This document shows positions 1-13,318 of a DNA stretch of 13,543 nt, piece after piece. Every line of letters begins with the position of its first letter. Position 1 is the first letter of the stretch. The translations under genes and the position numbers were made by a program. The notes under the pieces were generated by a model. It saw only the letters and a list, made by a program, of their open reading frames with translations, did not search any database and was not told the origin of the DNA. This DNA is from a virus (Duplodnaviria; Heunggongvirae; Uroviricota; Caudoviricetes): the IMG/VR virus record IMGVR_UViG_2698536485_000014; one strand, given 5' to 3'.

Positions 1-252
1 CACGAAAGGCACTCCCCCGAATCAGTTCAGGCTGCGGTCACATCAGCGGGGAAATACCTTTCGGGATAGCTACCCACACAGAAAACCCGCAAAAGAAAAC
101 TGTGTGGATAACTAGCCCAATAGGAGAATTAATCGACCACTCAACGATGATCAGGGTAGTGTTATTTATAAGGCGGCACCGCTACCTGGTCGCCTTTACT
201 TTGGAGGAAAATACGGCAAATCACTTTCACCATTGATTTACGGTATATGTAT

Positions 253-281
253 ATTATATCAGTATTCTCTCAAATTGTCAA
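253..281 (-). promoter_or_regulatory. Consensus sigma70-type promoter firing leftward
   Basis: Reverse complement of 253-281 reads TTGACA, a 17-nt spacer, then TATAAT: both hexamers perfect with optimal spacing. Downstream on the minus strand (1-245) there is no ORF in the window, so the target is an sRNA or a gene beyond the left edge. Confidence 0.4.
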
Positions 282-590
282 CACCCTTATTATATAAATT
301 CTAATAATTAGCGTGGTAACGGTATTTTCAGACCTCTATCAATCCCATCAATACGTCACCCCCACCCTTTAGATGCATACATCCGACCTACTTTGTAGGC
401 TTGGCGTACTGCCAAGGTCGCAGCTATGCGACTCATATCTATCACCACTTTATAAAGCTTGATAGATATCTTTTGATCAATATCAATGTTTTCCGGGGAT
501 TTACCCGGCTATAGTTCGAATCAAGGAAGGGGAGCATTGATAGCACCCCAACCGAACAAACAAATCAACTTCTCGCAAAAGGTGATAGTT

Positions 591-1132: not shown

Positions 1133-1720
1133 ATGAACATTAAAACTATCATTGCAGTCATCACTATTGCCTTTAGTGCCAACACCGCAGCTATTGATGT
1201 AGGGGCCGTAAAAGATGCATCTTGTGCTGATAAACTGGCGGCACTTAATGCGGGATTCGATGCACCCCAGGGCTATCAAATGGGGCTATCTCTTAAAAAT
1301 ATTATTCTCCCTATGGAATCTGGCGCTTATGTATACGGAGCGATAGGAAAACTGGAGAAGCCGGAAATTGACCTGCAGGGTGTGAGAGCGAAGATCACAA
1401 AAAGAAATGAAAGCCTTTGTGATGTAGCTGAAATAGCTTTCATATCAGACGATGAAAAATCTATTTTAGCCTTTTGCAAAGATAGCGATGATAATGATCG
1501 CTTCTTTAAGATCACCCACAACAGGCCAATCTCTTTCTACTCTAATGCCACTATGGGCGCGGGTATGCAGTGGCTGAAGAGAGCTAAAGTAACTGAGATC
1601 GACATTGAAAAAGAGGCCAATGCAGGCAGTTATGGATTCTGGAAAGGCTGGACTAAATACACGTTCCAACAATGCGGCATCGATAGTCAGGCCTACGACA
1701 ACGGATTTTGGTTTTTCTAA
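1133..1720 (+). CDS. Secreted/periplasmic protein of unknown function (195 aa), moron-like
   Basis: N-terminus MNIKTIIAVITIAFSANTAA has a classic Sec signal peptide shape (basic residue, hydrophobic core, small-residue cleavage region). Four cysteines in the mature part; aromatic C-terminus (FWFF). GGGG Shine-Dalgarno at 1122-1125; terminator 22 nt downstream. Confidence 0.7.
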   Translation: MNIKTIIAVITIAFSANTAAIDVGAVKDASCADKLAALNAGFDAPQGYQMGLSLKNIILPMESGAYVYGAIGKLEKPEIDLQGVRAKITKRNESLCDVAEIAFISDDEKSILAFCKDSDDNDRFFKITHNRPISFYSNATMGAGMQWLKRAKVTEIDIEKEANAGSYGFWKGWTKYTFQQCGIDSQAYDNGFWFF

Positions 1721-1741
1721 CCTGCTAAGTTAATCCCACCA

Positions 1742-1768
1742 GGGGGCCATCACGGCCCCTTTTTATTT
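1742..1768 (+). terminator. Rho-independent terminator after the 1133..1720 gene
   Basis: Stem GGGGCC (1743-1748), loop ATCAC, stem GGCCCC (1754-1759), followed by TTTTTATTT. Confidence 0.6.
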
Positions 1769-1842
1769 GCCTCTTTGAATTACCCCCTATTTACACTCCT
1801 TTCAGTCCTGATCATCACTCCCTACGGTCATGAGCAATTAAC

Positions 1843-1889
1843 CCCTATTTAAGGGGTATTTAATGGGTATTTAATGCCTATTTATTGAT
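1843..1889. repeat. Four tandem 11-bp AT-rich repeats
   Basis: TATTTAA/TATTTAAT/TATTTAAT/TATTTATT begin at 1846, 1857, 1868 and 1879, an exact 11-bp period. The first unit is embedded in the hairpin CCCCTATTTAAGGGG. Confidence 0.5.
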
Positions 1890-1965
1890 TTAATCCGTTT
1901 TATGCCACAACCGCCCGGTTGACAGAGTAAGAGAGAGGGTGTAACCCTTTTTCGTAACACCAATA

Positions 1966-1981
1966 AAATCAATAAGTTAGC
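1966..1981. repeat. 16-bp exact direct repeat, left copy (AAATCAATAAGTTAGC)
   Basis: Identical 16-mer at 1966-1981 and 9620-9635, with 17 of 18 identity when extended. Rough chance expectation for a 16-mer pair in 13.5 kb is about 0.02. Confidence 0.45.
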
Positions 1982-2356
1982 TTAATAAGCCTTTTCTCTA
2001 TTTTTGTCAAATTTAACATACCCTCAAAAACTGCAAAATCTGGCTGCAAGATTATCTGCAGCTGGATTTCTTACACCTCATTTTGTGGTATCACCCTGAC
2101 TAGTTTGTGCATAAAATGAACAGTTTTTAACATTTCCTCTTCACCTGGTAACCACACAAAAAGCTAAAAACGAGGCACAGATAATCTTAGAGGCCTGTTT
2201 TCTTGTTATCACTCTGGAAACGTCGTAGAAGTGATTTTGATGAAAGATGACCTACCCTATTACACCCCCATTTTTTGTTATCACAATTGCATCCTGTGCG
2301 GTATATGGCTGTGTGCTGAAAGCGGTCTTGGGTGTGGGTGTCAGAAATATCCATTA

Positions 2357-2372
2357 GCGGTATTAATACCCG
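2357..2372. promoter_or_regulatory. Isolated palindrome GGTATTAATACC, related to the CGGTA...TACCG family
   Basis: Perfect 12-bp palindrome at 2359-2370 inside GCGGTATTAATACCCG, with the same half-sites as the array at 3300-3490 but a 1-nt shorter centre. Confidence 0.3.
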
Positions 2373-3157
2373 TCAGATGTTCGTCTGAGGTGCCAGGCAG
2401 GCGCTCCCCCACCTCCCTTTTTTCTTCTAACAATTCTCAAATATCACACCACTGCCCACCACGTTGCTATTATGTTAATTCTTAAGCTTTGCTGTATGTT
2501 GTGCACATTATTTATTCAGGTGCATGTACGTAAATTCTGGGCCTCCTTATCATGATTTTTAAATCAGATTTTGTAGTTCGGTTTCTTAGTGTAGATAAGA
2601 TCTATTATGTTAAATGCAATTTTCCCAACCCTTCAAATCAATGACTTACATGTAAGCATGCACTAACACCCCACACAGCACATTAGACGTGTAGATGTCT
2701 ATATCCCACATTTTTGATTGTTTTGTAGTCATTCCCCTGATCATTTAACCAGTATAGTTTGCTCTCTGCAGACCACAAAATCGGAATTTACATCTGATTA
2801 ACATAATCTGTTAGCATGATCACCATTACCCACACAACAATAACCCCATGCAAGCCTCTTTAGGCAATTTATCGGCGTGTTGGTGTGAACAGTCTTTCAT
2901 GTTCTTTATGTATTCATGACTGCAAGGAATGTATTCATTGTCCTGTGTGAGGGAAGGCTGGACTGCTCCAGGGGCCATAGTTATGATGCCCGGTCAACAT
3001 AGCTGTTGATAAAATCAACGGGTGTTGGCCTGCATATTTCCCACACATGAGAGGAAATCAAAGCAAAGAGAGAGGAGAGAGGTTTGCTAGACGATCAGGA
3101 CTATACAGAGTCAAAATCAAGTCACATTAGAGTCAAATCAGATGCAATCAATCCCCC

Positions 3158-3218
3158 ACCTGTTGGGATTTCCCACATGTTCAACCATACACAGGAGCTA
3201 ACCTGTTGGGATTTCCTA
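3158..3218. repeat. Two 18-bp direct repeats (ACCTGTTGGGATTTCCCA / ...CCTA)
   Basis: 3158-3175 and 3201-3218 match at 17 of 18 positions, 43 bp apart. Confidence 0.5.
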
Positions 3219-3235
3219 CACCTCTTGCACATACC

Positions 3236-3490
3236 CCGGAAGATTTTTCCGGTGTCTCCAACCTGTGAAGAATTTTCACACCTGTAAATCCATACAGCAC
3301 GGTAAAAACTACCGCACAACCTGTCAAAATATTTTACTACTCCCTTTAGTCATACCCCTTTCAGTCATACTCAGGCACCACACCCCGGTAAATATTACCG
3401 TACTCAGGCAGATATAAAGGGGCTAACCACGGCAAATATTTCCCTACTACCTCGGTAAATATTTCCGGTGTACCCCGGTAAAAATTACCG
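3236..3490. promoter_or_regulatory. Phased array of 15-bp palindromic sites (iteron/operator-like)
   Basis: CGGTAAAAACTACCG (3300-3314), CGGTAAATATTACCG (3386-3400), degenerate CGGCAAATATTTCCC (3430-3444), CGGTAAATATTTCCGG (3453-3468), CGGTAAAAATTACCG (3476-3490). Related palindromes CCGGAAGATTTTTCCGG (3236-3252) and GTGAAGAATTTTCAC (3265-3279). Centre-to-centre spacings are 86, 44, 23.5 and 22.5 bp, roughly multiples of two helical turns. Confidence 0.55.
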
Positions 3491-3519
3491 CCTAATAGAT
3501 AAAGTAATAGACCACACAA

Positions 3520-4060
3520 TAGATCCCCCCCTAACCCCCAAGGGGAATGGGGAGGGATCAGAGAGTGGGGAAGGTTTTCTAAGGGAAAAGCTTAACCCAC
3601 AAATGAAAGCCTAAAGAGCATGAGCGACTCTTTAGGCAATCTGTGTGTGGGGGGGGTGACAATGTATTCCATACATGACACGTCACCCAATTGTGTGTGG
3701 GAGTGCCTACGGCACCTTAGCCCATGGCTAAGCCCTTCGGGTCTGTGTGGGTCCGGCGAATGCGTCAGCATGAGGCCCACAATGTGGACCGCTGCCGAAA
3801 GCTTGCCAGCGCCGGAAGGAGGCAGCAAAGAGTCTCCCGCGCTCATGTGTGGGCGTATACGTAAGATATACACTCATAAATCGAAAATAAGCCCCCTAAA
3901 TGGCCTTCTGGCTGCATTAACCTGTGTGAGTAGTGAATTGCATTACCTGATGCTTAAATCGCGTTAGAATCGATTTTAGAGCGCTTAAGGCAAAAAGTGC
4001 CCTCCCTTGTGGGCTTGCTTGTGTCTGCTGTGCAGGCTATGGCACCTATAGCACACCTAA
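3520..4060. other. GC-rich, hairpin-dense non-coding segment; candidate structured RNA or protein-binding array
   Basis: No credible ORF. Perfect 10-bp stem GCCTAAAGAG/CTCTTTAGGC (3609-3637); nested hairpin 3654-3688; GTGCC-TAC-GGCAC (3703-3715); CTTAGCC-CAT-GGCTAAG; a C(TTCG)G tetraloop; GAAA loops. Boxes TGTGTGGG at 3643, 3692, 3744 and 3846, with degenerate copies at 3923 and 4007. Confidence 0.3.
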
Positions 4061-4076
4061 ATGATAATAATTCTCA

Positions 4077-4105
4077 TTGACAATTGGTTGACAATATGAT
4101 AAGAT
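4077..4105 (+). promoter_or_regulatory. Possible sigma70 promoter for the small membrane ORF
   Basis: TTGACA (4077-4082), 17-nt spacer, TAAGAT (4100-4105). A second TTGACA at 4088-4093 lacks a good -10. Confidence 0.3.
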
Positions 4106-4140
4106 TATAAATAGGGGGAGAAACAGATCCGGAGGTCAAT

Positions 4141-4290
4141 GTGGAAATTACAGATGCAATAGCGATCATCAACCTGGCTGTACTGTGGTGCGGTGTTGCC
4201 TACATAGCCGGAGTAACTGCAATCGACAATCTTGAAGAAAAAATGATAGATAAATACAAAAAGATTGTTGACAATTTGACGAATGTCTGA
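4141..4290 (+). CDS. Small membrane protein (49 aa, GTG start), hypothetical
   Basis: GGAGG Shine-Dalgarno at 4131-4135, 5 nt before GTG 4141. The product VEITDAIAIINLAVLWCGVAYIAGVTAIDNLEEKMIDKYKKIVDNLTNV contains one predicted transmembrane helix. Not in the ORF track because it is under 60 aa. Confidence 0.3.
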   Translation: MEITDAIAIINLAVLWCGVAYIAGVTAIDNLEEKMIDKYKKIVDNLTNV

Positions 4291-4296
4291 TAAAAT
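4268..4296 (+). promoter_or_regulatory. sigma70-type promoter upstream of the plus-strand gene module
   Basis: TTGACA (4268-4273), 17-nt spacer, TAAAAT (4291-4296). Predicted start near 4303, about 120 nt before ATG 4423. Confidence 0.5.
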
Positions 4297-4422
4297 ATAA
4301 AGCATAGGGTAATTCTCATCATAGTGAATTTCCTTTAGTAGACTGGCGGGGGCTTGTCTTAAGTTCCCGTTTCTTTTTAACCATATATCGCACAGGTTAG
4401 TGAGCTGACAGGAGATTGAATC

Positions 4423-4638
4423 ATGGCTAAAACCGGACCGATAAGCCAGCTAGTAAACTGGACTACTGACGAAATCGTCGAGAACGTGCTTAAAGGTAAC
4501 TTTCGAAAAACTTCCGTTTATGCATTTATTCGTAAACACAAAGGAGAATATCCACACATTGAAGCGGCAATTTTAGAACTGAACCGTCTCCGCATCGAGC
4601 GTGAGCTGGCTAAATACACCAACAACATTAATAAATAA
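4423..4638 (+). CDS. Small basic protein (71 aa), possible regulator
   Basis: AGGAG Shine-Dalgarno 8 nt before ATG 4423. First gene of a compact co-directional cluster. No recognisable family by eye. Confidence 0.55.
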   Translation: MAKTGPISQLVNWTTDEIVENVLKGNFRKTSVYAFIRKHKGEYPHIEAAILELNRLRIERELAKYTNNINK

Positions 4639-4651
4639 TTATGGGGGAACT

Positions 4652-5518
4652 ATGGCAAACAACTATGGGGAAAATTTTACTCCCCTTTTTAAACGTTTCA
4701 TCAAATACATTTTTAAAAATCCGATTGCAAAAACTACAACCAATAAAGAAAGATTTCACTTAAATTTGTTGGAAATGGCAATTTACGGTGAAATGGCAAG
4801 TTTCCATTTAAACGGTAAAGAAATATTTATCTCTGAGCAAACCTTAGCAGATGATTATGATGCCACAGAAAAAACAGTAAGGTCGGCTATCAAAACATTA
4901 GAGGCTGCAGGACTAATATTTGTAAAACGGAGCAGAGGTAAGTCTAATCATTACAAACTACTTATTACTCCTGATCAGCTTGGCAAGATGTGTGATGAGC
5001 AGGGTATTAAAACCTCCGCAAGTGTGGGATACAGCAAAGAGGCCTCCGATAATCAACAGGAAGCCCCAAAACAAGCCACACAGCAGCCTGAAAAGCCCGA
5101 GGCAATGCAATCCCCTTCCCAACCTAAAAAAGAACGCAGAGAACGCCGTAGAGACGCTGGCAAACGTGAAATAGATGAGCACGGTTATCCGATTCTGACA
5201 AGCGATGAAATGAATGCTAGATATAAAGTAATTCAGGCCGCATTTAAAGATCAGAAGAGAATTAAATTATCTGAATTGCGTGATACATTTTACGGGCCGG
5301 AGGTGATGGATAAAATTAAAGGCACTATTCCCGATAAAATCTGGAAAGAGAAAGATTATTGGCACCTGACAGAGCAGGCCCTTAAGGTGGCTCAACATGT
5401 GGTTAAAAGAGGCAAAACAATTACCCTTGATTCTATTAGTCATGGCTATGATGCACCGAAAGAAAGATTGTGGAACAACTGCAAGCTTGTAAATGGTGAA
5501 TTGACAATTACAAAATAA
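4652..5518 (+). CDS. Winged-helix DNA-binding protein (289 aa), possible replication initiator or organiser
   Basis: GGGGGA Shine-Dalgarno before ATG 4652; the track ORF 4601..5518 begins at an upstream GTG with no Shine-Dalgarno. N-terminal wHTH-like segment (ISEQTLADDYDATEKTVRSAIKTLEAAGLIFVKRSRGK), a low-complexity Q/P/E/K-rich linker, then a C-terminal domain. Architecture resembles iteron-binding initiators such as lambda O; this is an inference. Confidence 0.6.
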   Translation: MANNYGENFTPLFKRFIKYIFKNPIAKTTTNKERFHLNLLEMAIYGEMASFHLNGKEIFISEQTLADDYDATEKTVRSAIKTLEAAGLIFVKRSRGKSNHYKLLITPDQLGKMCDEQGIKTSASVGYSKEASDNQQEAPKQATQQPEKPEAMQSPSQPKKERRERRRDAGKREIDEHGYPILTSDEMNARYKVIQAAFKDQKRIKLSELRDTFYGPEVMDKIKGTIPDKIWKEKDYWHLTEQALKVAQHVVKRGKTITLDSISHGYDAPKERLWNNCKLVNGELTITK

Positions 5519-5704: not shown

Positions 5705-5808
5705 TTAATATCCCCTGTTATCCCCAAATAAACTAAATAAACTAATTACATATAGAACTAGAACTAGATTGATTTCTCTTTAATGTTAAATTGACTGGAG
5801 AATTAATC

Positions 5809-6294
5809 ATGTTCAAATCTGATCTTTCTGATTCCCAATTTGAAAAACTGGTAGCACTGCAGAAATATCTCCCCAGTGATGATCAACCAACACGACAGGC
5901 TAAGCACTTATTAGTCGAGGGCTTTACCCCTGAATTCGTGGCGGAATACACAGGCGTTAAACTTGAGAAAGTCCAAAAACTATATAATGAGTCCTGGAAT
6001 CCACGGTGTAGAGTTCCCCTCAGTGTCTACAACGAAATAGATAGAGATAGAAATGTCTTCGAAGATCGCCGCCGCAAATCTCTTTTAATGTGGAATTGCG
6101 GGATGAATATTGAAGAGATAGCAAAAGAATTAAAAGTAACCTGCTTTCATATCTGGGGCTTGTTGAGTGAAATCCTGCCACGTAAGGAGCTTAATCAACG
6201 TTTGCCTAAGCCCGGTAGTCGTGCTTATCGCGAATTTATATTCATCTACCGCCGCCATAGCAATAAAGTCCGGAAAGCAATGCAGCGCAAATAG
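5809..6294 (+). CDS. Hypothetical protein (161 aa) with two HTH-like segments
   Basis: GGAG Shine-Dalgarno before ATG 5809; the track start 5791 is a TTG. Segments FTPEFVAEYTGVKLEKVQKLY and GMNIEEIAKELKVTCFHIWGLL look like helix-turn-helix motifs. Basic C-terminus. Confidence 0.55.
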   Translation: MFKSDLSDSQFEKLVALQKYLPSDDQPTRQAKHLLVEGFTPEFVAEYTGVKLEKVQKLYNESWNPRCRVPLSVYNEIDRDRNVFEDRRRKSLLMWNCGMNIEEIAKELKVTCFHIWGLLSEILPRKELNQRLPKPGSRAYREFIFIYRRHSNKVRKAMQRK

Positions 6295-6352: not shown

Positions 6353-6382
6353 ATGGCTCATATAAATTTTAAGGAATTCCAA

Positions 6383-6826
6383 ATGTCTCAAATCGCTAAA
6401 TTACTATCCCAGGTTATCAAAGCTTTCGACGCTGAAGATTCAAAAGTTCGCCAGGATCTTTTAGATGGCAAGTTTACCAACACCCTGGCATTTACCCGTG
6501 ACAAAGAGCACTTCTTAAAACACAGACACCACGCTTTTGCTGAATGCAAGTCCGCTAATGGTGATGTTTTCTATGTCGATTTGGTGGTTATGGCATGTAG
6601 GCTGTGGATGATTCAGGACCTTATGCGCCAACACGGTGATGATCCTCTTATCAGCATGTGGAACAGCGCCCAGGATGGCTTTGTGATTGCTGCCTTATCC
6701 AAATCAATGATTGAGGCAGAAGGGGCAAGCCTTCAGAACATGGCAGATCTCTTTGAAATAAGCGTAGGAATGATGCAGACCATGCTCCAAGCTGTCAAAC
6801 CTCTCAAACTGGTTAATCTTGATTAA
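6383..6826 (+). CDS. Hypothetical protein (147 aa), predicted mainly helical
   Basis: AAGGA Shine-Dalgarno 7 nt before ATG 6383; the track start 6353 lacks a Shine-Dalgarno and overlaps the operator. Composition is rich in A, L, M, Q, K and E, unlike a beta-rich tail tube protein. Confidence 0.55.
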   Translation: MSQIAKLLSQVIKAFDAEDSKVRQDLLDGKFTNTLAFTRDKEHFLKHRHHAFAECKSANGDVFYVDLVVMACRLWMIQDLMRQHGDDPLISMWNSAQDGFVIAALSKSMIEAEGASLQNMADLFEISVGMMQTMLQAVKPLKLVNLD

Positions 6827-6885
6827 GCTATTGATAAATAAGCACTCCCCATTTTTGGGGGGTGCATCAATGAGAGGATATGCCT

Positions 6886-7269
6886 ATGAATATTGAAGAA
6901 ATGATAGTTGAATTCGAAGAGGGTGATTTCCTGGAAGATGGGGAGTTTAGTTACTCCCATTTTAAACAGGCGTTATTTAGCAGCGATGATAAACCACACG
7001 TTAGTGATCTTAACGACGATGATTTATGTCGTTGGGTGTGCACCCGCTTATATGAGGATGGAAAATATACAGGCCAAAACTTTCCAAATCTCTATTTCAA
7101 AGCACAAACATTTGAGGAAGGGCAAAGAGTGAAAAACCTGGTCGATCAAATGCTGTCAGCCGGATATTTGCATAAAGAATTATTAAATCCTAAAGCTGAA
7201 AGCAAGCGCCATTATATTTTTGTGTGGACTATTGGCGATAAGTGTCCACTAAGACGCAAAGGCAAATGA
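6886..7269 (+). CDS. Hypothetical acidic protein (127 aa)
   Basis: GAGAGGA Shine-Dalgarno 7 nt before ATG 6886. Acidic N-terminus. Second gene upstream of the tape-measure gene. Confidence 0.5.
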   Translation: MNIEEMIVEFEEGDFLEDGEFSYSHFKQALFSSDDKPHVSDLNDDDLCRWVCTRLYEDGKYTGQNFPNLYFKAQTFEEGQRVKNLVDQMLSAGYLHKELLNPKAESKRHYIFVWTIGDKCPLRRKGK

Positions 7270-7270
7270 T

Positions 7271-7507
7271 ATGAACACCTACGAAAAGATTTATCAAAAA
7301 CTGGTTAAGGACTCCGAAGAGACGCCCGAAGGGGTGACAATAGGTCACCTACCAGAGGCAGCGAAAGAGGGGTCCACCATTATTAAAAGTGGCACCCACA
7401 CAGAAGGCCTCTCAATCGAAGAGCTGGCGGAGAAATATAATATTGATAAAGAGGCCCTGAAAAGGGCTATTTCATTATCAAAATCTTTAAGACAGGGTGA
7501 GGTATAA
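7271..7507 (+). CDS. Hypothetical protein (78 aa)
   Basis: ATG 7271 lies 1 nt after the upstream TGA. The gene ends 1 nt before the tape-measure start, so the three genes are tightly packed. Confidence 0.5.
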   Translation: MNTYEKIYQKLVKDSEETPEGVTIGHLPEAAKEGSTIIKSGTHTEGLSIEELAEKYNIDKEALKRAISLSKSLRQGEV

Positions 7508-7508
7508 A

Positions 7509-9608
7509 ATGGCAATGAAGGAAGTAGCCAAACTAACAAACGTTATTTACTGGGATTCTGATAAATCCTCCTGGCGAAAAGAAGTTAAACGGCTTGAGGA
7601 TTATAAAAAATCCTGGAAGAAAGCTACCGACGATATAGCTAAAGCGGATTTTAAATCGAATCAGGCTGTGCTCAGAACACAAAGAACACGCGCTAAGGTG
7701 GAAGAGCAGATCGCCAGAGCACAGAAGAAACAACGTGCTCAGGCTGTCAGCCGTCTGACCGGGGGCAATAATCCGGAGCTCTCCTCTATGCGCAAGTTCT
7801 ATCAGCAGCAAGCCAGAGAGGCCGCCAGACAACAAAAACTGTTAGATCGTAGTGTTGGAGATGTTCAGCACAGAAAAGCACGTGTAGGGGCCAACAGTGC
7901 ACGAATCAGCAGCATGTTTGATGGCTCCCTGGTTGCTCAGTTCCAAAGCAGGATCCAGAGAGTTAATGCTGATTATGCTAAAGGGGCTATCAACCTGCAG
8001 GCCTATAATCAGAAAATGGCTCGGCTCAGGGCTGAAATGAAGATGGCAACAGCAGAGGCCGGAAAATTTCAGAGCAGACTGGATAAACTGGCATCAGGTG
8101 CCAGCAAGGTGCATGACAACCTGGGCAAAATCAACTCCACACTAGGCAAGATAGCCATTGGCCTTACTGCCGCTGGCTGGGGTGTTCAGCGTGCTGTTAG
8201 TGGTGCTATGGGTAGCCTTGCAGATCGCAACAGTGCCTACTTCGGTTTGATGGCACAGAACAAGGATGATAAAGCCAAGACTGATCAGCAGATGGCTTTT
8301 ATCAAGAACACAGCCTACACCTATGGGATGGATGAGCGGGAGATGCAAGGGGGCTACATGCGCTTTGCTGCAGCTACTCCCACCATGAAGGAATCTGATA
8401 AGCAGGCTCTTTTTGAGGCTATGGCTATTAAAGGTCGCTCAGTGGGTGCTACTGGCGAGCAACAGAACAGGGCGCTTGTTGCGGTCCAACAAATGGCTTC
8501 AAAGGGAAAAGTTATGGCGGAAGAGCTGCGGGGCCAACTGTCAGAAGCCTTTGCAGGCTCACAACAGGATTTTCAACAGGCCGCTATTGATGCCGGAATC
8601 ATCAAGAATACCCAGGAATTCGATAAAGCCCTTAAAGATGGCAAAATCACCCTGGATAAGCTACTCCCTTCTTTGGTGAAAATCTGGTCTGCAGCCAAGA
8701 ATACGAAAGCCTTTGCTGAATCCATGAAACAGCCAGAAGTAGCAATGCAGCGCATGAAAAACAGCTTTAACGAGCTGGCGATTCAGTTTATGGGTGTTGT
8801 GGATCCTGCGGATGGCGTTATTAGCTTATCTGAATCTCTGATCTCCATCTTTGAAGACCTCACCACTGATATGGACGGCAGCGGGAGCGCGGCAAAACAG
8901 TTCGGTGAGGCAGTCGGGGCTGCCATGCGTGAGATCATGTATTGGGTAGGCTTCGCTAAGGGATATATTGAGGTCAAGGCTAAAGAGTTCGGCATGACCG
9001 GATCAGAGGTTGGCGAGCTTATCGGAAAATTGGTAGTCGGCTTAGCTGGTCTGAAAGTTATTACTACACTGCTTTCCCCTCTAACCGGATTTGTTTCACT
9101 TGTCACCCAACTGATAGCTTTGTTAGGTAAAATCCCTGGTATGAGCAAGCTTCTGGCTTCTGCCTCAGGTGGAACGGCAACAGGAGCAGCGGTCATCAGT
9201 GCAGGCTCTAACGCTGAAAGAAGTTTCATTGATGGCAAGACGCAGGAAATGAGTAAGGAGAACTCAAAACAGGGTGCTTTGTTTGAGCTGGGAAGATTTG
9301 TTAGCAATGCTGGCGCACTGTTCACACCTGGCGGTGATACTGGTCCTTTGTTCGATCAGGTCAGAGGCTGGTTTAATAAAGGGCCAACATTGACAGTAGA
9401 CACTGGCATCAGACCTACACCAACAGGCGGCATAGCTATCCAGAATGGTGGATATCAACCAGTCCAAGTAAATGTAGCCCCACAAGGTGAGATTTCCGGC
9501 AAATGGGAGATAACCATTGATGAGGGTGGAATTGCCAGGGTGATCCAGAAGGAAGTCAGCGATCAGTTGGATTGGAAAGCCACACAGGAATCTAACCAGC
9601 TTTTCTAA
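7509..9608 (+). CDS. Tail tape-measure-domain protein (699 aa)
   Basis: GGTGAGG Shine-Dalgarno 6 nt before ATG 7509; the track start 7497 is a GTG. Coiled-coil, Q/R/K-rich N-terminus. Central segment ...QQMASKGKVMAEELRGQLSEAFAGS...KALKDGKITLDKLLPSL... matches my recollection of the conserved tape-measure domain motif. Hydrophobic segments (LIGKLVVGLAGLKVITTLLSPLTGFVSLVTQLIALLG) and a Gly-rich C-terminus are also typical. Confidence 0.6.
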   Translation: MAMKEVAKLTNVIYWDSDKSSWRKEVKRLEDYKKSWKKATDDIAKADFKSNQAVLRTQRTRAKVEEQIARAQKKQRAQAVSRLTGGNNPELSSMRKFYQQQAREAARQQKLLDRSVGDVQHRKARVGANSARISSMFDGSLVAQFQSRIQRVNADYAKGAINLQAYNQKMARLRAEMKMATAEAGKFQSRLDKLASGASKVHDNLGKINSTLGKIAIGLTAAGWGVQRAVSGAMGSLADRNSAYFGLMAQNKDDKAKTDQQMAFIKNTAYTYGMDEREMQGGYMRFAAATPTMKESDKQALFEAMAIKGRSVGATGEQQNRALVAVQQMASKGKVMAEELRGQLSEAFAGSQQDFQQAAIDAGIIKNTQEFDKALKDGKITLDKLLPSLVKIWSAAKNTKAFAESMKQPEVAMQRMKNSFNELAIQFMGVVDPADGVISLSESLISIFEDLTTDMDGSGSAAKQFGEAVGAAMREIMYWVGFAKGYIEVKAKEFGMTGSEVGELIGKLVVGLAGLKVITTLLSPLTGFVSLVTQLIALLGKIPGMSKLLASASGGTATGAAVISAGSNAERSFIDGKTQEMSKENSKQGALFELGRFVSNAGALFTPGGDTGPLFDQVRGWFNKGPTLTVDTGIRPTPTGGIAIQNGGYQPVQVNVAPQGEISGKWEITIDEGGIARVIQKEVSDQLDWKATQESNQLF

Positions 9609-9655: not shown

Positions 9656-9690
9656 CAAGAAAAAAGCCCCTAAGTGTTAACAAAGGGGCT
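9656..9690 (-). terminator. Rho-independent terminator on the minus strand
   Basis: Stem AGCCCCT (9665-9671) pairs with AGGGGCT (9684-9690) around a 12-nt loop. On the minus strand the stem is followed by TTTTTCTTG. On the plus strand no T-run follows. Confidence 0.45.
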
Positions 9691-10108: not shown

Positions 10109-10567
10109 TCAGCCTCTCCCAACATTTGACCAGTATTTGATTGCACCGATCAAATCATCATAGTGGCGCATTGCATCATTGAAGCCTTTATAGCTTGCCC
10201 ATTGTGGGGAGACTTTGTTATTGCTGAATTGCCCACTAATCAGGATAGTCTCCAAAATGTCGGCGTATCGCTTGCCAATTCGCTTTCTGACGGCCTCAGA
10301 GCTTCCACCCTTTACGATTGCATTAATCAGGGCTTTTGTGTGTCTCAGGCTCTCATAGAGCATTGCAGCGTGGGCAGATTCCATAAAGGAGCGCTTAGGC
10401 AGATCACCCCACCCCTCAGAGTGGATAGCTGCCAGTGTGGCGTAATTCAGGCCGCTATAGTGCTTTCCGTCATCCCAGCCAACCGCTACACCTTCCATCT
10501 GTGAGAGCTCTTTATGCAGCTTATCCATCATGCGCTTGTCTATGGTGCAACGGACTTTCGGACTCAT
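10109..10567 (-). CDS. Hypothetical protein (152 aa), possibly virion morphogenesis-associated
   Basis: GGAG Shine-Dalgarno 8 nt before the minus-strand ATG at 10567. The start overlaps the upstream gene stop as ATGA (10564-10567). Function assigned by position only. Confidence 0.55.
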   Translation of the reverse strand: MSPKVRCTIDKRMMDKLHKELSQMEGVAVGWDDGKHYSGLNYATLAAIHSEGWGDLPKRSFMESAHAAMLYESLRHTKALINAIVKGGSSEAVRKRIGKRYADILETILISGQFSNNKVSPQWASYKGFNDAMRHYDDLIGAIKYWSNVGRG

Positions 10568-11367
10568 TTGTTGATCTCCGTGATGTCATCGAGCAACATG
10601 TTGGCCTTATCAATCATCGTTTCGTGGAACTCATTCGACACAACAGACTTATCACCTGCGGCAATCTTTCCCGCTGCCTCTCCCTGTGCATATTCCCCGC
10701 GATGCTTAGCCCTGGTTGATTTCGTAGCAGCATTGCCAGCGTTACTACCCTCTTTAGCACTGTTAACAGCACCCTTTTGCTGTGTTTTATTCACCTTCTT
10801 ACTGTTAGTGAAAACTCCGGCATTTTCGACCATCTTCACCTTGAAGGTGCGGAATTCTTCAAAAGTGCAATCAATAGTGATGCAGTCACCGGAGGAAGAG
10901 CTACGCTTAACTTCACATTTCGTCATGATGAAGTTCTCAAGAAGTCCGGCATCTTCACTCACCAGGCTAACCAGCTGGCGCTTGTCTCTCATTTCCATAA
11001 GAGCACGCACAGCGGCGGCGGGGCGCATGGATTCAAGGGGATTATCTGGATCAGTGTTCCGGTCGATGTAGTTCTCTTTCCGGATAATGTGAGGGGAAGA
11101 GGTAATAATGCCCGTAAAGCTGACAGATTTATCTTTAATGACGGCATGGTCTGACATGGTGGTGCCATCCTCGACCGCATAGCTCGATTTCTCAACAGGG
11201 AACGAATAGCTGACATCAGAGATAGAGTCAAAGAAGATAGCCACATTATCGGTATAGTTGAAGCCATCCATCATATTTTTGTTTTGTGAATATCCCCCAC
11301 ACATAACAGTGAATGCAGGAGATCTCGACTCAGCTTGTTTTGCAGCTGTCAGAGCATCACTAGCCAT
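10564..11367 (-). CDS. Hypothetical protein (about 268 aa), Ser/Thr/Val-rich with low-complexity C-terminus
   Basis: Preferred start is ATG at 11367, with GGAGG 10 nt upstream. The alternatives are ATG 11376 (too close to the Shine-Dalgarno) and the track TTG at 11421. The composition suggests a beta-rich structural protein; this is an inference. Confidence 0.55.
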   Translation of the reverse strand: MASDALTAAKQAESRSPAFTVMCGGYSQNKNMMDGFNYTDNVAIFFDSISDVSYSFPVEKSSYAVEDGTTMSDHAVIKDKSVSFTGIITSSPHIIRKENYIDRNTDPDNPLESMRPAAAVRALMEMRDKRQLVSLVSEDAGLLENFIMTKCEVKRSSSSGDCITIDCTFEEFRTFKVKMVENAGVFTNSKKVNKTQQKGAVNSAKEGSNAGNAATKSTRAKHRGEYAQGEAAGKIAAGDKSVVSNEFHETMIDKANMLLDDITEINK

Positions 11368-11561
11368 AGTAAACATGCCTCCAAATTGGTCCACTTCATG
11401 GATTTGGCTAAACTCGTGCAAATAGCCCTCGTCTTGAGGGTGTTAAAGCCAAACCTGCAAAAGATGCAGGCAAAATAGAACTTATCGTTGCCCTGCTTAA
11501 AATCTGCAGAAAATACAGGGCAGTTATTCGTTAGAATCGCTTATAGCTCTTCCCGAGAGCG

Positions 11562-11813
11562 TTATTTTGCAAAACGATTATGGGCATTCAGGGCTTTTTT
11601 GCGGTCCTGGGCTTGTTTGCGTGCAATAAAATGTTCGAAAGTCTCGGCCCAGGTGCATTTATTATATTCACGGTATTTATGCATAGCCTGGCGGCTAACG
11701 TCATAGCAGGCGGCAAATGTGGAGATACGCAGGAATTCCGGCAGATCCTCGTCATCGATATGGATAATATCAAAAGGCACGTCGTCACGGTCGCCGTATA
11801 AAACAATTTTCAT
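11562..11813 (-). CDS. Small acidic protein (83 aa) with possible HTH
   Basis: GAGGTG Shine-Dalgarno 8 nt before ATG 11813; the track start 11822 is a GTG. Contains the segment CYDVSRQAMHKYREY. Sits just downstream of the capsid terminator. Confidence 0.45.
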   Translation of the reverse strand: MKIVLYGDRDDVPFDIIHIDDEDLPEFLRISTFAACYDVSRQAMHKYREYNKCTWAETFEHFIARKQAQDRKKALNAHNRFAK

Positions 11814-11845
11814 AAAAGACACCTCAAAAAACTTAAGACGGGGAT

Positions 11846-11910
11846 AATAAAAAAGGGAAGAGGGAAAGACCTATCCCCGATCTCTCACCTCTTCCCTTTG
11901 CTTTTATTTG
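11846..11910 (-). terminator. Terminator/attenuator after the major capsid gene, possibly bidirectional
   Basis: Stem AAAGGGAAGAGG (11852-11863) pairs with CCTCTTCCCTTT (11888-11899) around a 24-nt loop. The minus-strand transcript is followed by TTTATTAT; the plus strand is followed by GCTTTTATTT. Confidence 0.5.
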
Positions 11911-11927
11911 GCCTTCGAAGAAGGACC

Positions 11928-12971
11928 TTATTTAGCCTTGGCTTTTGCCAGAGCGGCGGCGGAGTTACTAACACTCACTTTAATCACAACTTCAGGCATC
12001 ATGTTCATGAAAGCATAAGAGGATTCAATGAAGATTTCTCGTTTACCTCTGGACTCTTCCATATACATGAAAGCTTCACGTGCAGCGCCGTTTGCAAGCT
12101 TCAGGTTGCGAGCGCAAGGGCCGAAAAATTGAGTATAAACGCCCACCATATCGCCTAACGCATGCGGCTGGAACTGTGGGACCAGATAAGCAGTATTCTC
12201 TGGCAGACTATCCATTTGCACCACACGCAGAGCTAAGCCCGGAATGCGGAAGGTCGGGAAGCCCGGCAGAATATCCTCAGGGAACATCAGACCTTTGTCG
12301 GTAATATTCTGATTGCCGAACAACAGCACTTTTCTCAACAGTTCATCAGTCTGAATTGCAGCAAAGAGTTCAGCACGGCAGAACAGGGTGAAACCACGCA
12401 GAGCGCGAACAACACCACGCTGTTTAACCTTGCTCAGTGCAACCAGGTCCTGCAGCTGTTTAAGGATATCTTTAGCTAAATCCACTTCGGAAGTAGTTTG
12501 TTGTGCGCCCAGCAGTTCGCACACATTCAGTTCTTTACCCTTGGTGAGGATAATTTTGTTCTCAAAGAGAGCAAGCTGGCGTGCTTCTTCGTGGGTCTGG
12601 CGTAAGCCTTCGCCAAGCTGAATGACACGACGAGCGGTTACAGACTCTAAATTCTCTTCGGAATCTTTGCCCGGAACACGGATACCCTGCCAGTCAGAAG
12701 GATAAATAGCACTTGATGCGGCAGTGAATGCCATATCACCCGTGCCCGTTTCACGCTCATCTGCGGTAATGGTCGCCATCTGTTCACCGTAGCGCGGATA
12801 CTGACCGAAAGCGGTTTGTTTCACCTGGCGAACTTTGTCATATTCAAATTTAAAGGTATTGCACAGAGCAGTAGTGTTGAAGATATCCATTGCTGAAATA
12901 ATCTGGTTATCCAGCGGGATGTCTTTAATCAGACCACACAGATCGCGAACTTCGAATTCTTTCTTAGCCAT
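11928..12971 (-). CDS. Major capsid protein, lambda gpE-like family (about 347 aa)
   Basis: AAGGAGG Shine-Dalgarno 6 nt before ATG 12971; the track start 12977 is a TTG. Size matches gpE-type capsid proteins. N-terminal FKFEYD and C-terminal PEVVIKVSV segments resemble lambda E as I recall it. It follows a decoration-size gene by 11 nt and is followed by a strong terminator. Confidence 0.6.
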   Translation of the reverse strand: MAKKEFEVRDLCGLIKDIPLDNQIISAMDIFNTTALCNTFKFEYDKVRQVKQTAFGQYPRYGEQMATITADERETGTGDMAFTAASSAIYPSDWQGIRVPGKDSEENLESVTARRVIQLGEGLRQTHEEARQLALFENKIILTKGKELNVCELLGAQQTTSEVDLAKDILKQLQDLVALSKVKQRGVVRALRGFTLFCRAELFAAIQTDELLRKVLLFGNQNITDKGLMFPEDILPGFPTFRIPGLALRVVQMDSLPENTAYLVPQFQPHALGDMVGVYTQFFGPCARNLKLANGAAREAFMYMEESRGKREIFIESSYAFMNMMPEVVIKVSVSNSAAALAKAKAK

Positions 12972-12982
12972 CTTCAACCTCC

Positions 12983-13318
12983 TTATTGTGCAACACGCAA
13001 ATCGCCATTGCTGGCAGCGATAACAGCGGCTAAGCCGTCTTTATCCACGTAGGCCGGATTGATATAACAGCCTTTGTTGGCAACAACGATAAAAGCGTCA
13101 CCAACCTCAGCACGTTCTACAACCAGCAGCGGAGTTTTACCGGTGTGTGTTTCTTTAACGAAGGTCTCAACCTCGCCAGCCTCAGTCACCACAACAACAG
13201 TGCCAGCCGGAATCTCAGCTTTAACTTTGTTTTTAATTTCAACGTCGCGAATACTAAATTGCTCATCTGCGGCGTATGAAATGATGTGTCCGCGTGTGCG
13301 GATAGTCATATCTTTCAT
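12983..13318 (-). CDS. Head decoration-like protein (111 aa)
   Basis: AGGTGA Shine-Dalgarno before ATG 13318. Small Val/Ala/Glu-rich product directly upstream of the capsid gene, in the gpD-gpE arrangement. Its stop codon overlaps the capsid Shine-Dalgarno. Call is by position and size only. Confidence 0.45.
   Translation of the reverse strand: MKDMTIRTRGHIISYAADEQFSIRDVEIKNKVKAEIPAGTVVVVTEAGEVETFVKETHTGKTPLLVVERAEVGDAFIVVANKGCYINPAYVDKDGLAAVIAASNGDLRVAQ

What the first reader, a model, noticed from the sequence alone, without database searches (positions are those of the whole stretch)
10109..13318. Head operon continues into non-canonical downstream genes
Decoration-like and gpE-like capsid genes are followed by a strong terminator and then by 83-aa, 268-aa and 152-aa genes that I cannot match to the usual head-completion or tail proteins. 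The last two are translationally coupled by an ATGA overlap. The 194-nt gap 11368-11561 holds three hairpins (11426-11440, 11454-11470, 11490-11521) that could form an attenuator. These genes could be novel virion components, or a two-gene accessory or defence-type cassette after the capsid gene.
Basis: partly seen in the sequence, partly recalled or inferred. Interest (0 to 1): 0.45.

Follow-up and report, generated by a model that had tools for sequence, protein, structure and literature searches.

The report
Virion genes on small E. coli plasmid
The genes after the capsid gene are ordinary phage tail and neck genes, but they sit on a 13.5-kb E. coli plasmid with only a partial virion gene set related to rV5-like phages, so the plasmid is probably an undescribed parasite (satellite) of those phages.

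Summary
Five minus-strand genes (111, about 347, 83, 267 and 152 aa), a strong terminator after the capsid gene, an ATGA overlap and three hairpins are all present.

The interpretation needs revision:
- The 267-aa protein is a tail tube initiator (Pfam Dit_like; PDB 9cuy_K of phage phiTE, E=4e-35; about 50% identical to rV5-like phages).
- The 152-aa protein belongs to PHROG 222 ("tail completion or Neck1"). It is 42-50% identical to a neck-cluster protein whose Certrevirus homologue is recorded as MS/MS-confirmed in virions.
- No defence-family match was found. The hairpins are not conserved, so an attenuator is unsupported.

The context matters more. The window is essentially a whole non-mobilizable E. 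coli plasmid, found in 7 of 5426 complete genomes and in many other assemblies. It has a replication initiator and iterons. Its only recognisable virion genes are a capsid protein, a tape measure protein, the tube initiator and the neck protein. It has no terminase, portal, sheath or tube.

This structural core is conserved under purifying selection while the replication module is swapped. A 62-nt noncoding element and the 83-aa gene are shared with Escherichia Vequintavirus phages.

Best reading (about 0.55): this is the structural operon of a plasmid-borne satellite that builds hybrid virions with an rV5-like helper. It resembles the chimeric tails of Vibrio PLEs. Packaging is untested.

The parts
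12983..13318 (-). 111-aa protein. First gene of the operon, in the position of a head decoration gene. Function is inferred from position only.
   Evidence: ORF. No Pfam, PHROG or NCBIfam match. No profile similarity to rV5, phiTE or CB7 decoration proteins. Conserved in L007 (66% identity) and L011 (41%) directly upstream of the capsid gene. dN/dS is about 0.12-0.24.
11928..12977 (-). Major capsid protein (lambda gpE / rV5 type, HK97 fold). The start is probably the ATG at 12971.
   Evidence: phrog_29 'major head protein', E=2.9e-20. Full-length 24% identity alignment to the Vequintavirus JohannBauhin capsid protein, pairwise E=3e-12. Weak PDB match to the phiTE capsid protein 9cul_G. The L011 relative carries PF03864 Phage_cap_E. 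Among 5.8 billion proteins only relatives of 82% identity or more were found, all on E. coli contigs of about 13.5 kb.
11846..11908 (-). Strong intrinsic terminator directly after the capsid gene, followed by a U-run.
   Evidence: Energy -40.5 kcal/mol, z = -4.7. Inverted repeat I8. L007 has a terminator with a different stem sequence at the same place. rV5-like phages also place a terminator after the capsid gene.
11562..11813 (-). 83-aa small protein predicted to have a beta-hairpin, a helix-turn-helix and a long C-terminal helix. Probably binds DNA; its role is unknown.
   Evidence: AlphaFold2 mean pLDDT 82.7. No significant Foldseek match in the PDB. No family match. Conserved at the same position in L007 (51%) and L011 (37%). 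A 64%-identical 73-aa homologue sits in a roughly 280-bp insertion in some Vequintavirus metagenome contigs. It is absent from all 50,697 deposited phage records.
11368..11561 (-). Variable intergenic spacer with three hairpins (11490-11521, 11454-11470, 11426-11440). Not a conserved attenuator.
   Evidence: Folds. In the alignment, a 31-nt stretch is unique to the window and hairpins 2 and 3 are deleted in L002. The spacer is 21 nt in L007. No promoter-like site was found on this strand.
10564..11367 (-). Tail tube initiator (Dit-like N-terminal domain), 267 aa. In phiTE the homologue forms the first hexameric ring on the baseplate hub, on which the tube grows.
   Evidence: Pfam PF21821, 88.5 bits against a cut-off of 24.2. 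phrog_5197 at 1.3e-107, the same PHROG as the rV5-type initiator. PDB 9cuy_K (phiTE tube initiator), E=4.3e-35. About 50% identical to the initiator of 376 phage records, mostly Vequintavirinae. RefSeq names it 'phage baseplate protein'.
10109..10567 (-). 152-aa homologue of a Vequintavirinae neck-cluster virion protein (PHROG 'tail completion or Neck1'). Its start overlaps the initiator's stop codon (ATGA).
   Evidence: phrog_222, E=7.9e-29, the same PHROG as JohannBauhin bas53_0011. 42-50% identical to bas53_0011, phiTE gp219 and relatives. The homologue CB7_14 is annotated 'structural protein, MS/MS confirmed'. No PDB or Pfam match even with a profile. The AlphaFold2 model is unusable (pLDDT 46).
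7497..9608 (+). Tape measure protein, about 700 aa, convergent with the operon. Outside the finding, but part of the same conserved structural core.
   Evidence: PF20155 TMP_3 and phrog_5255, E=2e-168. 27% identical to Vequintavirus tape measure proteins over residues 8-498. The convergent arrangement is also seen in L011.
250..295 (-). Candidate promoter of the operon: TTGACA-N17-TATAAT with an extended -10. It is one arm of an inverted repeat whose other arm (4254-4299) is the candidate promoter of the replication / tape-measure operon.
   Evidence: Inverted repeat I1. Sequences read. Function is inferred and not tested.
3781..3842 (+). 62-nt noncoding element shared with Escherichia Vequintavirus phages. 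It lies outside the finding and links the plasmid to these phages.
   Evidence: 85-87% identical to an unannotated intergenic site in about 119 Vequintavirus records. A 6-bp stem keeps pairing through changes on both sides in 3 pairs.

Best explanation
The region is the structural-gene operon of a small, autonomously replicating E. coli plasmid that behaves like a phage satellite tied to rV5-like (Vequintavirus) virulent myophages.

Shown:
- The operon encodes, in order, a decoration-position protein, a highly diverged rV5-type major capsid protein, a terminator, a small helix-turn-helix-like protein, a tail tube initiator and a neck-cluster 'tail completion/Neck1' protein.
- A convergent operon encodes a tape measure protein.
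- The plasmid has no recognisable terminase, portal, protease, scaffold, sheath, tube, remaining baseplate or fibres.
- This structural core is conserved under purifying selection while the replication module is exchanged.

Inferred mechanism:
- When an rV5-like phage infects the host, the plasmid's capsid protein builds a smaller shell on helper portal and scaffold. That shell would fit about 13.5 kb, or a few concatenated copies.
- Its tape measure, tube initiator and neck protein replace the helper's counterparts in otherwise helper-made tails, giving chimeric tails about 10 nm shorter.
- The particles carry the plasmid to new cells and probably reduce helper yield.
- The terminator after the capsid gene sets a high ratio of capsid to minor proteins, as in the phages themselves. 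The ATGA overlap couples the initiator and the neck protein.
For: Gene identities.

The element is a plasmid:
- It matches 13.2-13.7-kb non-mobilizable E. coli plasmids at 91-96% identity over the full length.
- It is found in 7 of 5426 complete genomes and never on a chromosome.
- It has a replication-initiator homologue (phrog_270) and six 19-nt iterons.

No other virion or packaging gene was found among the 15 ORFs scanned.

The structural core is what the family conserves:
- The decoration-position, capsid, 83-aa, initiator and 152-aa genes are at least 89% identical in all close relatives. The four genes upstream of the tape measure gene are mostly 88% or more (the 78-aa one falls to 59%), and the tape measure protein is 71-96%.
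- The replication protein ranges from 38 to 99%.
- The same order, with the convergent tape measure gene, is kept in relatives whose capsid proteins are only 82% and 51% identical.
- Non-synonymous change is far below synonymous change.

Specific links to Escherichia Vequintavirus:
- The best phage matches for the initiator and the neck protein are in this group.
- A 62-nt noncoding element is 85-87% identical.
- The 83-aa gene is found as an insertion in some Vequintavirus contigs.

Precedent:
- Vibrio PLEs encode their own tail chaperone, tape measure and baseplate hub protein, 19-41% identical to ICP1's. They assemble chimeric tails that are shorter (bioRxiv 10.1101/2025.01.29.635557).
- EPIP satellites encode a capsid protein and a tape measure protein (PMC12822802).
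Against: - No evidence of packaging or transfer. The element was not found in the IMG/VR viral contig collection.
- No terminase small subunit or recognisable packaging site was identified.
- The capsid protein is only about 24% identical to rV5-type capsid proteins. The tape measure C-terminus, which in phiTE docks in the hub, shows no similarity to the rV5 protein. Compatibility with rV5 parts is therefore uncertain, and the true helper could be an unsampled phage.
- No tail assembly chaperone homologue was detected upstream of the tape measure gene.
- A 30-kb variant carrying a resistance transposon exists, which sits badly with a strict small-capsid size limit.
- The promoters look like ordinary strong sigma-70 promoters, so helper-dependent induction is not evident.
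Confidence: 0.55

Rival explanations
1. The plasmid is an anti-phage defence element that works by assembly interference. Its diverged copies of the capsid, tape measure, tube initiator and neck proteins co-assemble with those of an infecting rV5-like phage and poison head or tail assembly, without the plasmid itself being packaged.
For: The plasmid proteins are homologous to, but diverged from, Vequintavirus virion proteins. Interference with virion assembly is a known defence strategy; papers on it were listed but not read. No packaging gene or site was found. The element is absent from IMG/VR.
Against: Keeping at least five structural genes as a conserved, purifying-selected set with a tape measure of about 700 aa is more than poisoning would need. 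Element size is tightly conserved at 13.2-14.3 kb. There are no PADLOC matches. This reading does not exclude the satellite reading, since known satellites do both.
Confidence: 0.2
2. The plasmid is a decaying remnant of a phage or phage-plasmid. The virion genes are leftovers with no present function, and the plasmid persists only through its replicon.
For: The virion gene set is incomplete. A 2.7-kb stretch (about 1720-4420) has few ORFs. The plasmid is typed non-mobilizable.
Against: All five genes are intact. Non-synonymous change is far below synonymous change across relatives whose synonymous sites are saturated. The structural core is the most conserved part, while the replicon is exchanged. 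The same architecture recurs in relatives with 51% capsid identity. The capsid protein cluster has hundreds of member sequences.
Confidence: 0.12
3. One reading: the 268-aa and 152-aa genes are a novel accessory or defence cassette placed after the capsid gene, controlled by a three-hairpin attenuator in the 194-nt gap.
For: The pair is translationally coupled by ATGA. It is preceded by a spacer with three stable hairpins. Its position after the capsid gene differs from that in phages.
Against: Both proteins have clear homologues among standard virion proteins. There is no defence-family match. Hairpins 2 and 3 are deleted in L002 and the spacer is 21 nt in L007. The gap as a whole folds no better than shuffles (z = -1.2) and no alternative-pairing scheme is apparent.
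Confidence: 0.04

Closest known systems
[quoted passage not shown]
   Same: The helper is a virulent myophage. The satellite encodes its own tape measure protein and a baseplate hub-proximal protein, with low identity to the helper's (19-41% in PLE; 27% and about 50% here). In PLE these are incorporated into otherwise helper-made tails that are shorter (bioRxiv 10.1101/2025.01.29.635557).
   Different: PLEs are integrated islands with an integrase. They use ICP1's capsid protein, remodelled by the scaffold TcaP, and have a recognisable tail chaperone. The element here is a plasmid with its own replicon and its own capsid protein plus a neck-cluster protein, and no chaperone homologue was detected. 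There is no sequence relationship, and nothing is experimentally shown here.
Capsid-forming PICIs (cf-PICIs)
   Same: A satellite that encodes its own major capsid protein instead of remodelling the helper's. This comparison rests on my background knowledge of the family and on the summary in PMC12822802.
   Different: cf-PICIs, as I know the family, carry a full head and packaging module (portal, protease, terminase subunits, connectors) and an integrase, and take only tails from the helper. This plasmid has only the capsid protein and a decoration-position protein for the head, plus tail-interior genes, and no integrase.
EPIPs (Extracellular Prophage-Inducing Particles) of Mycolicibacterium
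   Same: Small (about 11 kb) elements that encode both a major capsid protein and a tape measure protein, and that give particles with altered capsid size and tail length (PMC12822802).
   Different: EPIPs also encode a terminase small subunit, a head-tail adaptor, a stopper, a scaffold and a serine integrase, and they depend on a temperate siphophage. None of these genes is present here. The host and phage group are unrelated.
P4 satellite, and pDolos (a plasmid satellite of an inovirus)
   Same: A satellite that can be maintained as an autonomous plasmid (PMC7552001 abstract; PMC12282955).
   Different: P4 encodes no capsid or tail proteins and resizes the P2 capsid with an external scaffold. 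pDolos is packaged by a filamentous phage. Neither carries structural homologues of its helper.
Vequintavirinae (rV5, phiTE, CB7) structural module
   Same: The capsid protein, tube initiator, neck-cluster protein and tape measure protein are homologous. A terminator follows the capsid gene in both.
   Different: The phages have about 30 contiguous structural genes on one strand in the order head, neck, sheath/tube, chaperones, tape measure, initiator, baseplate, fibres. The plasmid keeps four recognisable ones (five counting the decoration-position gene), rearranged into two convergent operons, on a 13.5-kb replicon.

Membership tests
Tail tube initiator / Dit-like N-terminal domain (Pfam PF21821; PHROG 5197) | Sequence match to the family model above the curated threshold | tested here: met
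   PF21821 scores 88.5 bits against a cut-off of 24.2, covering model positions 1-125 of 127. phrog_5197, E=1.3e-107. The rV5-type initiator falls in the same PHROG.
Tail tube initiator / Dit-like N-terminal domain (Pfam PF21821; PHROG 5197) | Homology to a protein seen by cryo-EM as the hexameric ring between the baseplate hub and the tail tube | tested here: met
   PDB 9cuy_K (phiTE tube initiator), E=4.3e-35 over query residues 11-229. The role of that protein is described in PMC11972413.
Tail tube initiator / Dit-like N-terminal domain (Pfam PF21821; PHROG 5197) | Gene lies directly downstream of the tape measure gene, as in Vequintavirinae | tested here: not met
   In the phages the initiator gene follows the tape measure gene. 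Here it follows the capsid and 83-aa genes on the opposite strand, convergent with the tape measure gene. Gene position is context and does not define the protein family.
PHROG 222 'tail completion or Neck1 protein' | Sequence match to the family profile | tested here: met
   E=7.9e-29 over profile positions 109-262 of 276. JohannBauhin bas53_0011 matches the same part of the profile at 5e-41.
PHROG 222 'tail completion or Neck1 protein' | Protein is a virion component located at the head-tail junction or tail end | tested here: inconclusive
   The homologue CB7_14 is annotated 'structural protein, MS/MS confirmed' in GenBank KY514263. No homologue is among the modelled chains of the phiTE virion or any other PDB entry. 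There is no Pfam match and the AlphaFold2 model is unusable.
Lambda gpE-type major capsid protein (Pfam PF03864; PHROG 29) | Sequence match to the family models | tested here: inconclusive
   phrog_29, E=2.9e-20 over the full length. No Pfam match at E<=0.1 for the window protein. The 51%-identical relative in L011 has a precomputed PF03864 hit. Full-length 24% identity alignment to the rV5-type capsid protein.
Head decoration protein (rV5 / phiTE type) | Sequence or profile similarity to known decoration proteins | tested here: not met
   BLASTP E=2.1. hhalign probability 0.4%. No family match. Only the position upstream of the capsid gene agrees.
Phage satellite (general) | Lacks a complete set of virion and packaging genes but keeps its own maintenance functions | tested here: met
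   No terminase, portal, protease, sheath or tube among the 15 ORFs scanned. A replication-initiator homologue and iterons are present.
Phage satellite (general) | Is packaged and transferred in particles that depend on a helper phage | not testable with these tools
   Needs infection and transduction experiments. Indirect links only: a shared 62-nt element, the shared 83-aa gene and the structural homologues.
PLE-type chimeric-tail module (tail chaperone + tape measure + hub protein) | All three genes are present | tested here: inconclusive
   Tape measure protein present. A hub-proximal initiator is present. The three small genes upstream of the tape measure gene show no similarity to the rV5-type chaperone and no family match.
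Capsid-forming PICI | Own portal, protease, terminase and connector genes, plus an integrase | tested here: not met
   None was detected in any ORF.
Transcription attenuator | Conserved, mutually exclusive RNA structures upstream of the regulated gene | tested here: not met
   Hairpins 2 and 3 are deleted in L002, and the spacer is 21 nt in L007. The whole-gap fold has z = -1.2 and the hairpins are independent of each other. No Rfam match.
Known anti-phage defence systems (PADLOC) | Match to a defence protein model | tested here: not met
   Only two noise-level matches (E=0.001-0.009, 14-17 bits) among the 10 proteins scanned.

The most novel reading that the evidence does not exclude
This is the first plasmid-borne satellite of a virulent E. 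coli myophage (the rV5 / Vequintavirus group). It would supply both its own capsid shell and its own tail-interior set (tape measure, tube initiator, neck protein) and take everything else from the helper. The result would be hybrid particles with a small head and a shorter tail that carry a 13.5-kb plasmid, sometimes with resistance genes, between E. coli strains.
Probability: 0.45. Interest if true: 0.8.

Novelty: new variant of a known kind. Interest (0 to 1): 0.6.

Why it matters
- This family would be a concrete E. coli case, and its putative helpers are a virulent phage group widely used in phage-therapy collections.
- It would combine two strategies so far seen separately: an own capsid (cf-PICI) and a chimeric tail (PLE).
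- It would explain how a plasmid typed non-mobilizable spreads among human, pig, bovine and chicken isolates. One variant already carries aminoglycoside-phosphotransferase and tetracycline-repressor genes on a transposon.
- For annotation, the immediate value is modest: the two 'unmatched' genes get names.

Tried and rejected
- Megablast of the region against 50,697 phage records found no match, so it is not a known phage.
- Rfam and tRNA scans of the whole window found nothing.
- Defence reading: PADLOC gave only noise.
- Attenuator reading: rejected on conservation and on the fold statistics.
- AlphaFold2 of the 152-aa protein from a 4-sequence alignment gave pLDDT 45.8. The model was unusable and no fold search was run on it.
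- Profile search of the 152-aa family against the PDB and Pfam gave nothing credible.
- AlphaFold2 of the 83-aa protein was confident (pLDDT 82.7), but Foldseek against the PDB gave no match below E=1.
- Decoration protein test by BLASTP and hhalign was negative.
- Tail chaperone test for the 157-aa and 129-aa proteins upstream of the tape measure gene was negative.
- Searches for relatives of the capsid protein in GTDB species genomes (two scans) and IMG/VR (two scans) found none. The JGI/ENA metagenome scan found only close relatives of about 13.9-15.5 kb.
- tblastn of the 83-aa protein against deposited phages found no match, although a homologue exists in metagenomic Vequintavirus contigs.
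- Literature searches for a description of this plasmid family, or of any rV5 satellite, found none.
- The promoters of rV5 structural genes and the plasmid's two promoters are both ordinary extended -10 sigma-70 types. They give no specific evidence for helper-controlled expression.

Full report
**1. What the sequence shows.**
- a 111-aa ORF (13318..12983);
- a capsid ORF (12977/12971..11928);
- an 83-aa ORF (11813..11562);
- a 152-aa ORF (10567..10109).

The ATGA overlap at 10567-10564 is real. The structure after the capsid gene is a strong intrinsic terminator: -40.5 kcal/mol, z = -4.7, followed by a U-run. The three hairpins in the 194-nt gap exist and are individually stable. The gap as a whole folds no better than shuffled sequence (z = -1.2).

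**2. What the window is.**
The window is not a piece of a phage genome.
- It aligns end to end, at 91-96% identity, with complete circular E. coli plasmids of 13.2-13.7 kb that are typed non-mobilizable. One 39.6-kb record carries three copies.
- In 5426 complete E. coli genomes the region occurs in 7, always on a plasmid.
- The capsid protein cluster has hundreds of member sequences, on contigs of about 13.3-14.3 kb. Metagenome contigs of 13.9-15.5 kb carry it too.
- The plasmid has a replication-initiator homologue (phrog_270, 4601-5518), six 19-nt iterons (3233-3490) and a resolvase-type helix-turn-helix protein.
- On the plus strand, convergent with the finding, lies a tape measure protein of about 700 aa.
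- None of the 15 ORFs scanned encodes a terminase, portal, protease, scaffold, sheath, tube or further baseplate protein.

**3. Identity of the genes in the finding.**

*The 267-aa protein* is a tail tube initiator.
- Pfam Dit_like scores 88.5 bits against a threshold of 24.2.
- It falls in phrog_5197, the same PHROG as the rV5-type initiator.
- It matches the cryo-EM chain 9cuy_K of phage phiTE at E=4e-35.
- It is about 50% identical to the initiator of Escherichia Vequintavirus phages.
- In phiTE this protein forms the hexameric ring on the hub from which the tube grows (PMC11972413).

*The 152-aa protein* belongs to phrog_222, "tail completion or Neck1".
- It is 42-50% identical to JohannBauhin bas53_0011, phiTE gp219 and their relatives. 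These genes sit in the neck cluster between the head genes and the sheath gene.
- The homologue in phage CB7 is recorded in GenBank as "structural protein, MS/MS confirmed".
- Its exact place in the virion is unknown. No homologue is among the modelled phiTE chains or elsewhere in the PDB, even with a profile search. It has no Pfam match, and my structure model was too poor to use.

*The capsid protein* is a very diverged member of the rV5 / lambda-E type.
- It matches phrog_29 at 2.9e-20.
- It aligns over its full length to the JohannBauhin capsid protein at 24% identity.
- Among 5.8 billion proteins it has no relative between about 25% and 82% identity.

*The 111-aa protein* is "decoration-like" only by position. 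Sequence and profile comparisons with rV5-type decoration proteins are negative.

*The 83-aa protein* is confidently predicted as a beta-hairpin plus helix-turn-helix plus a long helix. It has no significant structural or family match.

**4. Conservation.**
- The order decoration-position gene, capsid, small gene, initiator, 150-aa gene is kept in a relative with 82% capsid identity (L007). It is also kept in a metagenomic relative with 51% capsid identity (L011), which has the convergent tape measure gene as well.
- All five genes show far fewer non-synonymous than synonymous differences.
- Across close relatives the head operon genes are at least 89% identical. The tape measure protein and the genes just upstream of it vary more, down to 59%. 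The replication protein ranges from 38 to 99%, and a 195-aa secreted protein is optional. The structural set, not the replicon, is what defines the family.
- The spacer with the hairpins is variable. The window has a private 31-nt stretch, pMB4926_4 lacks hairpins 2 and 3, and L007 has only 21 nt there. The terminator is retained, with a different stem sequence in L007.
- rV5-like phages also have a terminator right after the capsid gene.

**5. Links to rV5-like phages beyond protein homology.**
- A 62-nt noncoding stretch (3781-3842) is 85-87% identical to an unannotated intergenic site in about 119 Escherichia Vequintavirus records. A 6-bp stem in it keeps pairing through changes on both sides in three pairs.
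- The 83-aa gene has a 64%-identical homologue (68% at the DNA level). It lies in a roughly 280-bp insertion in some metagenomic Vequintavirus contigs. It is absent from phage BP9 and from all deposited phages.
- Both observations indicate DNA exchange between these plasmids and these phages, which suggests they meet in the same cells.

**6. Mechanism.**
Shown: the gene identities, the plasmid context, the incompleteness of the virion set, its conservation, and the links to Vequintavirus.

Inferred: the plasmid is a satellite that uses an rV5-like helper for portal, packaging motor, tube, sheath, baseplate and fibres. It supplies its own shell and its own tail-interior set.

The precedent is direct. 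Vibrio PLEs encode a tail chaperone, a tape measure protein and a baseplate hub protein that are 19-41% identical to ICP1's. These replace the ICP1 proteins in the particles and give tails about 10 nm shorter. EPIP elements encode a capsid protein and a tape measure protein.

With about 700 aa here against 778 aa in JohannBauhin, the 1.6 A per residue quoted in that preprint predicts a tail about 12 nm shorter. This is inference.

The terminator would keep capsid expression high relative to the minor proteins. The ATGA overlap would couple the initiator and the neck protein in the close group.

Weak points:
- There is no packaging evidence and no terminase small subunit or packaging site.
- The element is absent from IMG/VR.
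- The tape measure C-terminus is unlike rV5's.
- No chaperone homologue was found.
- A 30-kb transposon-bearing variant exists.

**7. Rivals.**
- A pure assembly-interference defence plasmid is possible and is not exclusive of the satellite reading.
- A decaying remnant is unlikely, given the purifying selection and the conserved core.

**8. Novelty.**
The two "unmatched" genes are ordinary members of known virion families. The element that carries them has no description in the literature I could search. RefSeq only labels the genes. If it is a satellite, it is a new variant: borne on a plasmid, tied to a virulent E. coli myophage, and combining an own capsid with a chimeric-tail module.

Noticed in passing
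window 3781-3842 (context 3640-3930): A 62-nt noncoding element is 85-87% identical to an unannotated intergenic site in about 119 Escherichia Vequintavirus phages. A 6-bp stem keeps pairing through changes on both sides in 3 pairs (plasmid GCTGCC/GGCAGC, phage ACCGAC/GTCGGT). In both the plasmid and the phage it lies a few hundred nt downstream of iteron-like repeats and is flanked by TGTGTGG motifs. It could be a replication signal, a packaging signal or a small RNA. There is no Rfam match.
   Followed up: partly
window 250-295 and 4254-4299: The arms of a 46-nt inverted repeat (76% complementary) each hold a near-consensus sigma-70 promoter, TTGACAATTTGA...TGATA(T/A)AAT. One points towards the decoration/capsid operon (across the window origin). 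The other points towards the replication / tape-measure operon. This suggests common control of both operons by one operator.
   Followed up: partly
L008 10001-10222 (also L009, L010); compare L012 10453-10476: A 73-aa homologue (64% identity) of the plasmid's 83-aa helix-turn-helix-like protein sits in a roughly 280-bp insertion in the early-gene region of some metagenomic Vequintavirus contigs. It is absent from phage BP9 and from all 50,697 deposited phage records. The gene appears to have moved between plasmid and phage.
   Followed up: yes
window 3233-3490: Six copies of a 19-nt iteron (ACCCCGGTAAAWATTACCG). They are probably the replication origin served by the initiator homologue at 4601-5518.
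   Followed up: no
window about 1720-4420: A 2.7-kb stretch has no convincing ORF and no Rfam or tRNA match. It holds the iterons, the shared 62-nt element and a cluster of TGTGTGGG motifs. The window has 34 matches with at most 1 mismatch, against 9 expected.
   Followed up: partly
L005 13452-21041 (NTNY01000053.1, 30,105 bp): A variant of the plasmid carries an insertion between the 152-aa gene and the tape measure gene. The insertion has two aminoglycoside phosphotransferase genes, a DDE transposase and a TetR-family gene. The convergent intergenic region therefore tolerates cargo, and the element can carry resistance genes.
   Followed up: partly
NZ_CP043822.1 (39,610 bp; L001 is one unit): One complete-genome record holds three copies of the plasmid unit (3 x about 13.2 kb). 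This could be a real multimer or concatemer, or a long-read assembly artefact. The total is about the size of a lambda-class genome.
   Followed up: no
window 4423-5518, compared with L002, L015, L016, L018: The replication module (71-aa and 305-aa proteins) is mosaic within the family (38-99% identity). The head operon genes stay at 89% or more; the tape measure gene and the four genes upstream of it are more variable (59-100%).
   Followed up: yes
window 1133-1720: A 195-aa protein with an N-terminal signal-peptide-like sequence and no family match. It is present in only some family members (window, L001, L002), so it is an accessory gene. It could be a surface or exclusion factor.
   Followed up: no
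window 9660-9690: The hairpin AGCCCCT-N12-AGGGGCT is preceded by an A-run. On the minus strand this reads as a terminator with a T-run about 420 nt downstream of the 152-aa gene. The minus-strand operon may therefore run on through 10108-9690.
   Followed up: no
window 5791-6294, 6353-6826, 6880-7269, 7271-7507: Four conserved genes (167, 157, 129 and 78 aa) upstream of the tape measure gene have no family match. They show no similarity to the rV5-type tail chaperone. The 167-aa protein has weak helix-turn-helix / sigma region 4 hints (E about 0.01). They belong to the conserved core, but their roles are unknown.
   Followed up: partly
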